A DNA stretch of 46,996 bases from Nitrospinales bacterium. GTDB taxonomy: Bacteria > Nitrospinota > Nitrospinia > Nitrospinales > JAJDAT01. Positions 34,407 through 38,976 of this stretch are shown in pieces. Below the pieces are notes generated by a model. That model was given only the letters and a program-made list of their open reading frames with translations, did not search any database and had not been told where the DNA came from. The stretch covers positions 1 to 46,996 of the forward strand of contig JBHHYO010000013.1 of assembly GCA_046757665.1 (NCBI GenBank), read 5' to 3'. Within the stretch, counting starts at the first letter, position 1. Every line of letters begins with the position of its first letter. Made by a program: the position numbers and the translations under genes.

Positions 34407-34808
34407 TTAATATTGTTTTTCGTACCGTTGATCGTCGCCGTCGGCGGGGGATTGATGTTTTTGCCAATAGGTATCGGCGGCGGGATCGAATTTGCGCTCC
34501 ATCGGGTCCTTGCGGATAACCCAGAAAACGAACCGCACCAGGGAGAAGAACGTCAGGTAAACAAATCCGAGGATGAGCTTTGCGTTGAACCTGCCAATGG
34601 CATCGGCGAATTTCATCCACCGTTTGTGAACGCCGCGCAGTTTTTCGGGAGCTGTCAGGGCGGCGGTGATAAAAGCAAGAGCCAGGGCGCCGGTGAAAAA
34701 CGGCGCGGTTTCCAGTTCCTTGTAAACCAGCACCGACGTGATCACGGAAAACACGCCGCCCATCAGCAGGCCAAAGGATTTTAAAATCTTTGTTGGTGGA
34801 TTGTTCAA
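34407..34808 (-). CDS. SxtJ-family membrane protein
   Basis: LKSFGL, TM helices, WMKFA..IG.FN...ILG.VY, RKDPM.RK...TYW, ..EKQY C-terminus; TTG start with GGAG RBS. Confidence 0.75.
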   Translation of the reverse strand: MNNPPTKILKSFGLLMGGVFSVITSVLVYKELETAPFFTGALALAFITAALTAPEKLRGVHKRWMKFADAIGRFNAKLILGFVYLTFFSLVRFVFWVIRKDPMERKFDPAADTYWQKHQSPADGDDQRYEKQY

Positions 34809-34880
34809 GAAAACCGTCTCCGTAATAAATGTTTGCCGTTATGCCCGCCATGCGGCAAATGTGCGGCGAACCTCCGGGGT

Positions 34881-35618
34881 TCAGCTATTCGCGTAAGTTT
34901 CGCGGGCCACCGCCTCGTCAAATTCACCGGGCGGGCCGTCGAAGATTTTCCCGCCGTTTTTTAGAGCGATTATACGGGAAGCGTACTGTTTCCCCAAATC
35001 CGGGATATGCAGGTTGCAGACAATGGTGACGCCGTCTTGTTCATTGATCCGTTTTAAAATATCCAGGATCGTTGTGGCCATGGCCGGGTCGAGGCTGGAG
35101 ACCGGTTCGTCGGCCAGGATCAGGCTGGGTTCCTGCATCAAGGCCCGGGCGATGCCGACCCGTTGTTGCTGGCCGCCGCTCAGGGTGTCGGCGCGCCGGT
35201 GAGCGGTGTCCGCAATCCCCAGACGCTCCAGGTTTTGCGCGGCGCGATGAACGTCCCGGCGGGAAAAATGGTTGACCAGCCCCGCCCAGGAAGAGGTGTA
35301 ACCCAGGCGTCCGCATAAAACGTTGGTGAGGACGGAACAGCGTTTGACAAGATTGTAATTCTGGAAAATCATGGCGATTTTTCTTCGGCGAATACGCAGG
35401 TCGTGGGCGTTGGCGCCGGTAATCTCCCGTCCCCGGAACACGATCCGTCCGCCGCTGGGCTCCACCAGCCGGTTGATGCAACGGAGCAGGGACGATTTTC
35501 CCGCTCCGCTTTTCCCCAGAACCACCACAAACTCGCCGCCTGCGACCTCAAAAGAAATTTCGTCCAGGGCGCGGGCTCCATTCGGGTAAATTTTAGCAAG
35601 CTTTTGTACTTGTAACAT
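34881..35618 (-). CDS. phnC: Phosphonate/phosphite ABC transporter ATP-binding protein
   Basis: [52 protein letters not shown]. Confidence 0.9.
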
Positions 35619-35624
35619 AAAGGG

Positions 35625-36542
35625 TTATTTTATTTTTTCCGGGTTCAATTTCAGAAGATGCCACGCCTGGCGGACCGGGTCGAAAAAGGCGTCGAAATCC
35701 ATGAGGCCGCTGATGCCGTAAACCTTTTTCAAGACGCGGCCGCCCCGCGGCGACTTGGAAATCTCGATCAACCCCTTCTTGACCTTTTGCCTGATCGCGG
35801 AATCGAGGCCTTTGCGGGCGCAAACCGTGTCGTTGGGAATTTCCTGGGTGTAGGCGATGACCTTTACTTTTTCAAAGACTTGCGGGAAGTTTCCGGCGAT
35901 GGCCGAGCGGGCGTCGTCATAAGTTGCGCCGGCATCCACCTCGCTCTTCATAACGGAAAGTATGACGGCGTTATGCGAGCCCGCAAAAACGGATTTGGAA
36001 AAAAACGTCCGCGGGTCATAGCCGCGGGAAGCAATGAGGGTTTTCGGGAATATGTGCCCCGAGGTGGAAACCGGATCGACAAAGGCGAATGTCTTGCCCC
36101 GCAACTCCTTCAGGGAATGGATGTTGCTTTTCGCGTTGACCACGATTTGTCCCCGATAAAAGGGACTGCCGAACCGGGAGACAATCAGGAGAAGGTCCAC
36201 GTCGTATTTTTCCCTGGCGAGGACGTAACTGAAAGTGGCCAGCCAGCCGATGTCCACCTTCCCCGCCCCCATGGCCTCGACAGCCGCCGCATAGCTGGTT
36301 GCCACGGCAGTCTTGAAGTGCAGGCCCGTCCGCTCCTGCAACAGGCGGGCGATTTCGGTTCCACCTTCGAGGATAACCTGGGCGTCGCCGGAGGGCACAA
36401 AAATCATGCGCAGGGGATTGTCCGGGCTTCCACGGGGGGCAACTCCCCGGTCCGCCAGGGCCAGGGAGCTGCAAAAAACGACGGCCGCAAAAACAATGGC
36501 CGGGACATACTCCAGGACTTTAGAAGAAAACAACCGGTTCAT
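35625..36542 (-). CDS. phnD: Phosphate/phosphite/phosphonate ABC transporter substrate-binding protein
   Basis: Signal peptide, SYAAAVEAM, FVDPVSTSGH, FAGSHN, IPND. Confidence 0.88.
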   Translation of the reverse strand: MNRLFSSKVLEYVPAIVFAAVVFCSSLALADRGVAPRGSPDNPLRMIFVPSGDAQVILEGGTEIARLLQERTGLHFKTAVATSYAAAVEAMGAGKVDIGWLATFSYVLAREKYDVDLLLIVSRFGSPFYRGQIVVNAKSNIHSLKELRGKTFAFVDPVSTSGHIFPKTLIASRGYDPRTFFSKSVFAGSHNAVILSVMKSEVDAGATYDDARSAIAGNFPQVFEKVKVIAYTQEIPNDTVCARKGLDSAIRQKVKKGLIEISKSPRGGRVLKKVYGISGLMDFDAFFDPVRQAWHLLKLNPEKIK

Positions 36543-36687: not shown

Positions 36688-37161
36688 CTACGATTTCTTC
36701 TTCTTTTTTGCCAAACCCATCAAGACGCCGCGGATGTACTTTACAACACTCCATATCTCAACGTCTTTCAATTTCTTATGGGCGACCATTCCGGTTCCCT
36801 TGGAGCCGTTTTTAACAATCCAGAACATTTGGCCGGCGGAAATTTTCTTCATGGTTGCCTTGCAAGTGAAATTTCGCGGCTTGGGGGTCAGAAGAGCGCC
36901 GAGTTTGCCATCGCCGGCCCCCTTGTTGCCGTGGCAGTTAAAACAGGCCATTGGAGCGCCTTTGGATTGGGCAAATTTTTGGTCATGAAAGATTTTCTTC
37001 CCCAGCTTCATGCTTGCGCCCTTGGGATATCTTTTTTTAGCGATGTTGGAAGGGGCGGATTTGGTCTTCCTTTTTTGCGGGCATTCCCCTGCCGCAAAGG
37101 CGGAAGCGGTGACAGAAAGAGTAAAAATGGCCAAGATGAGGGTAATAAATGTCTTTTTCAT
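36688..37161 (-). CDS. Secreted, strongly basic monoheme c-type cytochrome
   Basis: Signal peptide (AFA), CFNCH, GAGDG..PKPRNFT, GSKGTGM; AGGAG RBS. Confidence 0.92.
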   Translation of the reverse strand: MKKTFITLILAIFTLSVTASAFAAGECPQKRKTKSAPSNIAKKRYPKGASMKLGKKIFHDQKFAQSKGAPMACFNCHGNKGAGDGKLGALLTPKPRNFTCKATMKKISAGQMFWIVKNGSKGTGMVAHKKLKDVEIWSVVKYIRGVLMGLAKKKKKS

Positions 37162-37216: not shown

Positions 37217-37317
37217 ACAAGCGACGCCAAGGCCTCTTGGTCTTCTGCCAGAACAGGTTGCTGAAAAAGCCCCATTAGCGCCATACGCAACTCAAGCCGC
37301 TAATTACAAGAGAACAA

Positions 37318-37345: not shown

Positions 37346-37538
37346 TCGGAAAACTCTTACGACTTCTCATCTCTTTTCCTGAAATATCATAAAGTTCTCC
37401 TATATATGAAAGCCGGGTGGGCAGGCGTTCTTCCGAAAATTGTACCTGGCGGCCGGAAAAAACAATATTTCCCCGGCAATTTTTCCCCGGTGGGTTGATT
37501 GATTTTAAAGGCGTTGCAAATCTGAAAAGGAATTATGC

Positions 37539-37568
37539 TTGCTAAGCCGATAAATCTTGGGGTAGTAT
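37539..37568 (+). promoter_or_regulatory. Putative sigma70 promoter for the KamA-family gene leader
   Basis: TTGCTA-18 bp-TAGTAT. Confidence 0.45.
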
Positions 37569-37574
37569 TTTTAC

Positions 37575-37762
37575 CTAACGCAATTATTTATCACCGCCAA
37601 TGTTACTTGGTCGTTGTCGCTTCTCCGGTTTGATAGGCTTCCCCGTTCTTGACTTGAAGCCTGGATTTTTAATACGGCAAGTGGTGATATTCACACCGAA
37701 TCTTTAACCCACAAAAAAAATCAACCTCAGAGCCGGTATGTATTCGCTGAGGTTTGTTTTTT
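37575..37762 (+). promoter_or_regulatory. Candidate structured cis-regulatory leader (attenuator/riboswitch-like) ending in an intrinsic terminator
   Basis: Several stems (TATCAC/GTGATA, AGGCTTC/GAAGCCT); terminator AACCTCAG (37723-30)...CTGAGGTT (37747-54) plus TGTTTTTT directly before the AGGAGG RBS. Confidence 0.6.
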
Positions 37763-37773
37763 AGGAGGGCCTT

Positions 37774-38976
37774 ATGGATACTCGATTTTCTCCGCGTGGC
37801 GGTAATGGCTCAAACCACAATGGCCATAAACTTGTGGATCAAAACAATAACAGGTCGGACAAAAAACCAATAAAAACAAAGTACTTGACCAAGCTGAGCC
37901 AAGTCCCCGAATTGACCGGGAAAGAACGCGACGACCTGTCGGAGGTTGCCGAAAAGTTCGTTTTTCGTACGAATGATTATTACCAATCCTTGATCGATTG
38001 GAATGATCCCGACGATCCGATCCGCCGTTTGATCGTTCCGGATATCCGGGAAATGGACGAGTGGGGACAGTTGGACGCCTCTGAGGAGGAATCTTATACC
38101 ATGGTCAGGGGGCTTGAGCACAAGTACAGCTCGACGGCCCTTCTGCTGGTCAATGAAGTGTGCGCGGCCTATTGCCGGTTCTGTTTCCGCAAGCGCCTTT
38201 TCATGAACGACAATGATGAGGTCACCAAGGATATCTCCCAGGGGTTGCAATACATCCGCACCCATCGGGAAATAACGAATGTCCTTTTGACCGGCGGCGA
38301 TCCCTTGATCATGTCCACGGACAAACTGGGAAGAATTATCGAGCAGGTCCGGGAGGTGGAGCATGTGCGGATCATCCGGATAGGGACAAAAATCCCCGCG
38401 TTCAATCCGTTCCGCATCACCAACGACCCCTCGCTGTTGCGGATGATCGAAAAACACAGCACGTTAAAGAAAAAAATATATATCATGGCGCACTTCAACC
38501 ACCCCCGCGAGTTGACGGCCGAGGCGATTGAAGGCTTGAACCTGTTGATGAAGGCTGGAGCGATTATTGTCAACCAGACGCCGATCATCAAGGGAGTCAA
38601 TGACAGTTCGCAGGTTTTGACGGAACTTTTCGAAAACCTGTCATTTATCGGGGTGCCGCCTTATTATGTCTTTCAGTGCCGCCCCACCCTGGGGAACAAG
38701 GGATATGTGGTCCCCCTGGAAGAATCGTTCCTGCTGTTCGAGCGGGCTCGCAACACATGCTCCGGCCTGGCCAAAAGAGCCCGGTTTGTGATGTCCCATG
38801 CTTCCGGCAAAATAGAAATGCTCGGTCTCACTGAAGATCAAGCCTTTTTTAAATATCACCGGAGCGCGGATGAAAATGATAACGCGCGTTTTATGGTATG
38901 CAAAAGAAATTCCGAGGCATTCTGGTTTGACGATTACCGTGAACTGGTCTCCGAAGAGGTCTCGACTTATTCCTGA
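37774..38976 (+). CDS. KamA-family radical SAM protein (lysine 2,3-aminomutase-like)
   Basis: GLEHKY, CAAYCRFCFRKR, VLLTGGDPL, IRIGT, HFNHPREL, NQTPIIKGVND, PPYYVFQCRP, HASGKIE. Confidence 0.92.
   Translation: MDTRFSPRGGNGSNHNGHKLVDQNNNRSDKKPIKTKYLTKLSQVPELTGKERDDLSEVAEKFVFRTNDYYQSLIDWNDPDDPIRRLIVPDIREMDEWGQLDASEEESYTMVRGLEHKYSSTALLLVNEVCAAYCRFCFRKRLFMNDNDEVTKDISQGLQYIRTHREITNVLLTGGDPLIMSTDKLGRIIEQVREVEHVRIIRIGTKIPAFNPFRITNDPSLLRMIEKHSTLKKKIYIMAHFNHPRELTAEAIEGLNLLMKAGAIIVNQTPIIKGVNDSSQVLTELFENLSFIGVPPYYVFQCRPTLGNKGYVVPLEESFLLFERARNTCSGLAKRARFVMSHASGKIEMLGLTEDQAFFKYHRSADENDNARFMVCKRNSEAFWFDDYRELVSEEVSTYS

What the first reader, a model, noticed from the sequence alone, without database searches (positions are those of the whole stretch)
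37575..37773. Unrecognised attenuator/riboswitch-like leader controlling a KamA-family radical SAM gene
Seen in sequence: a possible promoter (37539-68) lies ~200 nt before the ATG. An intrinsic terminator (AACCTCAG/CTGAGGTT plus TGTTTTTT, with an A-tract on the 5' side) ends directly against the AGGAGG RBS. The upstream gene is divergent, so on this strand the terminator can only stop the KamA gene's own transcript. CCGGTTTGA (37625-33) can pair with TCAGAGCCGG (37727-36), which overlaps the terminator 5' arm and is a candidate antiterminator. Further stems are AGGCTTC/GAAGCCT and TATCAC or AATGTTAC pairing with GTGATA(TT). I do not see the signatures of the lysine, SAM-I, TPP, c-di-AMP, c-di-GMP, guanidine-I or T-box classes. 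Inference: a possibly new cis-regulatory RNA sensing a metabolite, ion, osmotic or temperature cue for a beta-amino-acid-forming enzyme.
Basis: partly seen in the sequence, partly recalled or inferred. Interest (0 to 1): 0.75.

Follow-up and report, generated by a model that had tools for sequence, protein, structure and literature searches.

The report
Terminator-like leader before aminomutase gene
A 200-base untranslated stretch in front of an uncharacterised aminomutase gene of a marine nitrite-oxidising bacterium ends in a real stop-signal-like hairpin, but it shows neither a working on/off fold nor a conserved sensor, so it is more likely a lineage-specific brake on expression than a new riboswitch.

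Summary
All motifs sit where stated; no Rfam family matches. The promoter and the terminator-like hairpin (37723-37762), which touches the ribosome-binding site, are kept in the one close relative found (L041). The proposed antiterminator is not: it costs 11 kcal/mol here, and its middle pairs break in L041. The leader is no more conserved than neighbouring spacers (85% versus 83-87%). Covariance models from three genera find only their own genus, although the gene is in 83 of 120 phylum genomes. That argues against a ligand-binding aptamer. Long leaders with terminator-like or ribosome-site-covering hairpins recur in other Nitrospinales genera with unrelated sequence, so post-initiation damping is plausible. 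Best reading: a leaky terminator plus partial ribosome-site cover, relieved in trans if at all. A 35-codon upstream ORF ending at the hairpin base is an unproven rival. The enzyme lacks the lysine-binding aspartates (invariant Arg303) and may make beta-glutamate; the scan noted this enzyme branch before on other DNA, not this leader.

The parts
37539..37568 (+). Probable sigma-70-type promoter (TTGCTA, 18 nt, TAGTAT); start site inferred near 37575
   Evidence: Sequence; kept as TTGCTA-18-TAATAT in L041; like-placed conserved blocks in other genera; a strict pattern written after seeing the data hits 21 of 58 leaders, 20 of them 226-361 nt before the ATG. Not mapped experimentally.
37575..37773 (+). 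About 200-nt 5' leader, single copy in the genome, found only in this genus
   Evidence: 85% identical to L041, like other spacers
37589..37691 (+). 5' domain: a long imperfect hairpin region with several alternative folds; only GCTTC/GAAGC (37637-41/37656-60) is common to the window's own fold and the joint fold
   Evidence: The joint fold has one compensatory pair (C37606-G37681 to A-U) but costs 10.4 kcal/mol in the window and has probability about 0 there
37600..37707 (+). Candidate 35-codon upstream ORF without an SD; its stop codon abuts the base of the hairpin that covers the SD
   Evidence: Same start, length and stop in L041; 7 of 15 changes synonymous; intact by chance 0.40, intact with 7 or fewer residue changes 0.039; SD duplex only -1.1 kcal/mol; no family. 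Unproven.
37625..37633 (+).
37708..37769 (+). Extended hairpin: CCC (37708-10) with GGG of the SD (37767-69); A-tract (37713-20) with the U-tract; terminator stem inside
   Evidence: SD about half paired (unpaired 0.53; genome median 0.32)
37723..37762 (+). Intrinsic-terminator-like element: 8-bp stem, 3-nt bulge, 3-bp inner stem, then TTTGTTTTTT
   Evidence: Core -7.7 kcal/mol; pair probability 0.96-1.0; kept in L041 with two G-U pairs, one lost pair and a longer U-run
37763..37768 (+). Shine-Dalgarno AGGAGG
   Evidence: identical in L041
37774..38976 (+). KamA-family radical SAM/PLP aminomutase, 400 aa, non-lysine pocket (Arg303 in place of LAM Asp293)
   Evidence: Only TIGR00238 over its cut-off; alignment to 2A5H; CxxxCxxC, R303, M340, S341, K346 invariant in 145 of 145 homologs
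36688..37161 (-). Divergent cytochrome c gene with its own TTGACA-16-TATAAT promoter (37345-37318)

Best explanation
The leader is an ordinary, fast-evolving 5' UTR whose last 60 nt form a constitutive brake. Shown by computation: the hairpin forms whatever the upstream sequence does and is followed by a U-rich run just before the SD. Inferred: RNA polymerase starting near 37575 stops at about 37760 part of the time (weak core, long loop, interrupted U-run, so leaky); in read-through transcripts the A-tract/U-tract and CCC/GGG pairs partly cover the SD and lower initiation. Any conditional control comes from outside the RNA fold (elongation or antitermination factors, a bound protein, cytoplasmic salt), not from a ligand-binding aptamer that flips an antiterminator. 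The gene damped is a near-core Nitrospinales aminomutase that probably acts on an acidic amino acid (glutamate to beta-glutamate, an osmolyte); that substrate is inferred, not shown.
For: Hairpin and U-run beyond chance and kept in L041, where the changes suit the plus strand better than the minus strand (z -2.14 versus -1.23). Terminator pair probability 0.9 or more at 10-50 C at every 3' length tried and with a ribosome mask anywhere on the uORF. Antiterminator +11.1 kcal/mol here, +7.7 and +11.9 in two registers in L041. Leader identity equals that of other spacers. No cross-genus hit with three covariance models and no k-mer shared by most of 26 leader groups (best 6-mer in 5.4 of 26), while the protein tree follows the families, so the leaders are positional orthologs that diverged. 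The same kind of brake recurs with other sequence: in sister genus g2 a helix covers the SD (unpaired 0.01-0.06 in 5 of 5; 93% of cells paired); genus g10 has a long hairpin plus six or more U in 9 of 9.
Against: No transcript data. Only two sequences of this genus, so covariation tests are weak: the joint fold beats random placement of the same changes only at 28 of 500 and 20 of 500. In L041 the terminator is marginal while being made (0.04-0.69 at 37 C until the U-run pairs) and competes with other folds, which fits a switch better than a fixed brake. Several genera have no terminator-like element (33 of 58 leaders have one, against 17 of 69 background genes in a more GC-rich genome). SD cover in the window is less than the genome median. 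Known riboswitches (Na+, c-di-AMP) do control related aminomutase genes elsewhere (PMC9337991, passages).
Confidence: 0.5

Rival explanations
1. Upstream-ORF coupling. A ribosome translating the 35-codon ORF (37600-37707) terminates at the base of the extended hairpin, melts the CCC anti-SD and the A-tract, and so frees the SD or helps read-through; expression then follows translation state.
For: ORF intact in L041; intact with 7 or fewer residue changes in 0.039 of permutations. In another lineage (L025, L090, L093, L100, L117, plus L082) a 23-27-codon ORF with an aligned ATG, a weak SD (-4.6 to -5.8 kcal/mol) and Lys at codon 3 ends 49-64 nt before the KamA ATG, ahead of a hairpin with a U-run. 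Such ORFs occur in 5.5 of 26 groups versus 2.4 +/- 1.2 in shuffles (2 of 100; the range was chosen after seeing the data).
Against: No SD in this genus (-1.1 and -1.3 kcal/mol); a closed ATG ORF of 30 codons or more arises in 16% of shuffled leaders; no such ORF in sister genus g2 or in g10, where the apparent frame is broken upstream; no run of a sensed amino acid; masking does not weaken the terminator in the window; no family match.
Confidence: 0.13
2. A true new riboswitch (Na+, K+, glutamate or beta-glutamate) whose ligand-bound fold overrides the terminator.
For: Terminator-like hairpin in a leader that only this transcript can read; precedent of Na+ and c-di-AMP riboswitches before ablA and eam; one compensatory pair in the 5' domain; marginal terminator in L041; a post-hoc RACC...AGGTT hairpin pattern in 6.9 of 26 groups versus 1.8, and a weak match of the g10 model in g6 leaders (E 0.07-0.23).
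Against: No aptamer-like conservation beyond the genus; leader no more conserved than other spacers; proposed antiterminator uphill and broken; the compensatory fold is 10.4 kcal/mol uphill in the window; no diadenylate cyclase domain found in this 97.6%-complete genome; no Na+-I match over the cut-off.
Confidence: 0.08
3. No real termination: the hairpin is a stability, processing or initiation-tuning stem, and the U-run mainly pairs with the A-tract or serves as an S1-binding enhancer; or the start site lies elsewhere.
For: Weak core and 16-nt loop; in g2 the like-placed hairpin has a poorer U-run but a strong anti-SD helix; KamA orthologs are T-rich before the SD in general (mean 4.4 of 10 versus 2.6; those genomes are more AT-rich).
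Against: U-run of 9 in 10 is rare in this genome and is longer in L041.
Confidence: 0.24
4. The hairpin mainly terminates an antisense transcript coming from inside the KamA gene (minus strand: stem followed by eight U).
For: Minus strand folds at -12.7 kcal/mol, z -2.65.
Against: The L041 changes make G-U pairs on the plus strand and A-C mismatches on the minus strand (z -1.23).
Confidence: 0.05

Closest known systems
Na+-I riboswitch (DUF1646, Rfam RF03071) and the tandem Na+/c-di-AMP leader of Dehalobacter lysine 2,3-aminomutase (PMC9337991, passages read)
   Same: Leader with an intrinsic terminator in front of a KamA-family gene tied to osmolyte synthesis (that paper names ablA and eam among regulated genes).
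   Different: No match to the model here; no aptamer overlapping the terminator; not conserved across genera.
c-di-AMP (ydaO, RF00379) riboswitch before glutamate 2,3-aminomutase
   Same: Terminator-containing leader before a non-lysine aminomutase (earlier scan note e1-4030578; not re-checked).
   Different: No Rfam hit; no DAC domain found in this genome.
Premature intrinsic terminators and leader-ORF attenuators in bacterial 5' UTRs (trp, pyrBI types; recalled, no call)
   Same: Promoter, leader, hairpin plus U-run before the SD; a short ORF upstream.
   Different: No competing 2:3 helix of like stability in the window, no SD or regulatory codons for the ORF, and the ORF stops 15 nt before the stem.
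RNA thermometers (fourU, ROSE; recalled, no call)
   Same: Imperfect A-U/G-U-rich hairpin reaching over the SD, strongest in sister genus g2.
   Different: The U-run lies beside the SD and does not pair with it; predicted SD access barely changes from 4 to 70 C.
Lysine 2,3-aminomutase (PDB 2A5H, TIGR03820) and glutamate 2,3-aminomutase Eam (TIGR04368)
   Same: CxxxCxxC, the Arg matching LAM R134 and a C-terminal GK lysine are kept.
   Different: Scores 225-227 bits against cut-offs of 525 and 650; Asp293 is Arg303 and no Asp stands at the Asp330 place. A paralog that keeps both Asp lies elsewhere in the genome (G000:C76).

Membership tests
Any Rfam 15 family (lysine, SAM, TPP, c-di-AMP, c-di-GMP, guanidine, T-box, Na+, Li+ and others) | Score at or above the gathering threshold | tested here: not met
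   No hit in 37575-37773 even at E up to 10; L041 gives only two snoRNA chance hits far below threshold; no riboswitch in 36 ortholog loci
Na+-I riboswitch (RF03071) | P1/P2 aptamer with conserved nucleotides, overlapping the terminator | tested here: not met
   Whole-genome search: 0 over the cut-off, one weak match on another contig
c-di-AMP riboswitch | ydaO aptamer, and a host that makes c-di-AMP | tested here: not met
   PF02457 not found in G000 (assembly 97.6% complete)
Riboswitch (general) | Aptamer conserved in sequence and structure across related genera | tested here: not met
Riboswitch (general) | Two mutually exclusive folds of comparable energy, kept in homologs | tested here: not met
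   L041 alone shows competing folds
Riboswitch (general) | Ligand-dependent structure change and output | not testable with these tools
   Needs in-line probing and transcription assays
Intrinsic terminator | GC-rich stem directly followed by a U-rich run | tested here: met
   (weak core, long loop, interrupted run)
Intrinsic terminator | RNA 3' ends in the U-run | not testable with these tools
   No transcript data were available
Leader-peptide attenuator | Translated uORF under coding selection, with an initiation signal | tested here: inconclusive
RNA thermometer | SD paired when cold and freed when warm | tested here: not met
   (prediction only)
KamA family (TIGR00238) | Score over the cut-off; CxxxCxxC; PLP lysine | tested here: met
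Lysine 2,3-aminomutase | Asp293 and Asp330 (their role in binding the lysine side chain is recalled, no call) | tested here: not met
Glutamate 2,3-aminomutase (Eam, TIGR04368) | Equivalog cut-off of 650 bits; activity on glutamate | tested here: not met
   227 bits; activity untested. A basic residue at the Asp293 place resembles Eam as recalled; searches did not give that text

The most novel reading that the evidence does not exclude
Nitrospinales hold an uncharacterised, near-core beta-glutamate-forming aminomutase under post-initiation control that each genus has rebuilt: a terminator plus uORF here and in one other lineage, an SD-covering helix in g2, a long conserved hairpin-terminator in g10, all possibly from one ancestral hairpin. 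In this reading the window's leader is a real conditional attenuator (ribosome- or ion-controlled) of a kind not yet described, tying osmolyte synthesis to translation or salt state in marine nitrite oxidisers.
Probability: 0.17. Interest if true: 0.65.

Novelty: new member of a known kind. Interest (0 to 1): 0.3.

Why it matters
If the brake is conditional, it would be a first handle on how marine nitrite oxidisers regulate a probable osmolyte pathway; searches for Nitrospina with aminomutase or with beta-glutamate found no paper in the library held, and the two papers listed for Nitrospinota with riboswitch were seen as listings only. As it stands, premature terminators in 5' leaders are common and this one is confined to one genus. 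The wider leads are the unassigned enzyme branch (invariant Arg in the pocket; Nitrospinota, Acidobacteriota, Calditrichota, Thermotogota, Aquificota, methanogens) and the better conserved g10 leader hairpin.

Tried and rejected
Rfam scans of the window, L041, 36 ortholog loci and four other G000 loci: no riboswitch. BLAST of 37400-37800 against 120 genomes: only 18-37-nt chance matches outside G000. Covariance models: R1 (this genus) hit 1 of 102 genomes, its own, and no g2 leader with filters off; R2 (g2) missed this genus; R3 (g10) hit 9 of 102, all g10. So the likeness of the g1 and g2 hairpins (same place, GAGG(G)TTTG 3' arm) is by eye only. Sequencing runs: no RNA holder listed; contigs of three DNA runs gave no variants, two of them possibly the source of this DNA. 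Leader peptide in g10: an apparent shared stop codon inside the hairpin was rejected, as the frame has no common start and is closed two codons upstream in 2 of 9. Thermometer behaviour: not predicted. Two further alternative helices (37695-702 with 37729-36; 37696-703 with the 3' arm): the first is not kept in L041, the second has probability 0.00 in the window. Gene neighbourhood gave no substrate clue: divergent cytochrome c upstream in most loci, varied genes downstream. Papers: 'KamA' hits in PMC5029188 and PMC8319295 were author names; the primary papers on glutamate 2,3-aminomutase were not held, so its pocket residues are recalled. No supplements were read. Background gene calls in G000 were crude script calls (ORFs of 150 codons or more).

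Full report
Setting. The window is contig C13 of a 2.97-Mb, 97.6%-complete assembly; its nearest relatives by this protein are named Nitrospinota. The gene at 37774-38976 passes only the broad KamA model TIGR00238 (204 bits, cut-off 199.2) and fails the lysine, glutamate, arginine and EpmB equivalogs. Close orthologs (E 1e-100 or better) are in 83 of 120 phylum genomes, all in the window's own order, and a tree of 52 of the 145 distinct proteins follows the families, with this genus sister to g2 (95/84). The upstream gene is a divergent cytochrome c, so the leader belongs to this transcript.

Observation. All strings are at the stated places. The terminator-like hairpin is real: z -3.36 for 37710-37764, core -7.7 kcal/mol followed by TTTGTTTTTT, a U-richness before the SD seen in 2 of 309 genes, and an arrangement seen in 2 of 69 divergent genes. 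The whole leader is not unusually stable (z -1.36). Rfam gives nothing in the leader at E up to 10, nothing in L041 and no riboswitch in 36 ortholog loci.

The one close relative. A metagenome contig, L041 (87.5% protein identity), keeps the synteny, the promoter and the leader. Its leader identity is 85%, the same as three other spacers (83-87%) and above four-fold degenerate sites (70-82%), so the leader is under no special sequence constraint. The terminator survives with two G-U pairs, one lost pair and a longer U-run; the changes favour the plus strand. Forcing the antiterminator costs 11.1 kcal/mol in the window and 7.7 or 11.9 in L041. A different long stem in the 5' domain shows one compensatory and two consistent changes, but it is 10.4 kcal/mol uphill in the window, and the joint fold beats random placement of the same changes only at 28 and 20 of 500. 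Against my reading: while it is being made, the L041 terminator is marginal (0.04-0.69 at 37 C) and competes with other folds, whereas the window's is 0.9 or more in all conditions tried.

Beyond the genus. Leaders fall into mostly genus-level clusters. The leader bodies are not shared: BLAST, three covariance models and k-mer counts over 26 groups find no common element. An aptamer is expected to outlast such distances (established knowledge; proteins here stay about 70% identical). What recurs is architecture. In g2, 5 of 5 leaders have two long hairpins, the second covering the SD (unpaired 0.01-0.06; 93.3% of 180 cells paired, 18 of 500 shuffles, 3 pairs with double changes). In g10, 9 of 9 have an 86-nt hairpin plus a U-run, with no double changes. 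One further lineage has a small hairpin and U-run directly before the SD. Overall 33 of 58 non-independent leaders hold a terminator-like element against 17 of 69 background genes; base composition differs, so this is not a test. Two weak hints of common descent: the g10 model's full-length hit in g6 leaders (E 0.07-0.23) and a post-hoc hairpin pattern.

An upstream ORF. 37600-37707 is a 35-codon ORF whose stop touches the CCC that pairs with the SD. It is intact in L041 (chance 0.40; with as few residue changes 0.039) but has no SD, and such ORFs arise in 16% of shuffled leaders. Another lineage has a 23-27-codon ORF with a weak SD at a like place; across groups 5.5 of 26 versus 2.4 expected, with a range chosen afterwards. 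It is absent from g2 and g10. I keep it as a rival, not a finding.

The enzyme. Against 2A5H, Asp293 aligns with Arg303; Arg303, Met340, Ser341 and Lys346 are invariant in 145 of 145 homologs, and no Asp stands at the Asp330 place. A paralog at G000:C76 keeps both Asp. From recall, these Asp bind the lysine side chain and glutamate 2,3-aminomutase has a basic residue at the first; an acidic substrate and beta-glutamate are therefore inferred. PMC1224877 (passages) describes beta-glutamate as an osmolyte but says early NMR work ruled out an aminomutase route in methanogens; a 2022 title in the reference list of 10.1101/2025.11.21.689712 (passages) reports such an enzyme in methanogens; I could not read it. 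PMC9337991 (passages) shows Na+ and c-di-AMP riboswitches before ablA and names eam among regulated genes; neither class is here, and no diadenylate cyclase domain was found. PMC5029188, PMC8319295 and PMC6411801 were seen as passages and gave nothing on this gene.

Verdict. A real, genus-specific leader ending in a weak terminator-like hairpin that also reaches over the SD. Most likely a leaky brake (0.5); stem without termination 0.24; uORF coupling 0.13; new riboswitch 0.08; antisense terminator 0.05. It works like a premature-termination leader; it is not a member of any tested riboswitch family and fails the two sequence-testable features of a riboswitch.

Noticed in passing
L006-L009, L014, L015, L194, L195, L199 (genus g10), e.g. 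L008:1292-1401: KamA leaders carry an 86-nt three-part hairpin plus U-run with near-invariant unpaired bases; one strong copy per genome in 9 of 11 g10 genomes and none in other genera. A better regulatory-RNA candidate than the window's leader.
   Followed up: partly
L025, L090, L093, L100, L117, L082 (e.g. L090:2813-2884): Aligned 23-27-codon upstream ORF (M-x-K start, weak SD) ending ahead of a hairpin and U-run before the KamA SD.
   Followed up: partly
L002-L005, L011 (genus g2): Conserved 8-bp helix covering the KamA SD, below a 12-bp stem.
   Followed up: partly
window 37252-37274: A 23-nt sequence repeated many times in G000, often 30-50 nt from contig ends, also present in L041: probably the end of an insertion sequence.
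   Followed up: no
G000:C4, upstream of the gene at 1914-2709 minus (L204): A roughly 300-nt spacer before a gene that looks NfuA-like (by eye) with a strong terminator (-18.8 kcal/mol) just before the SD; no Rfam hit.
   Followed up: partly
G000:C76 (L201:1486-2622) and G000:C80 (L203:811-3054): Two more KamA-family genes: a 378-aa one keeping both Asp, and a 747-aa long form below all equivalog cut-offs.
   Followed up: partly
window 37774-37870: The KamA N-terminus is a variable Asn/Gly/His-rich extension in many Nitrospinales orthologs.
   Followed up: no
window 34407-36542 minus: PhnD- and PhnC-like transporter genes followed by an SxtJ-family ORF.
   Followed up: no
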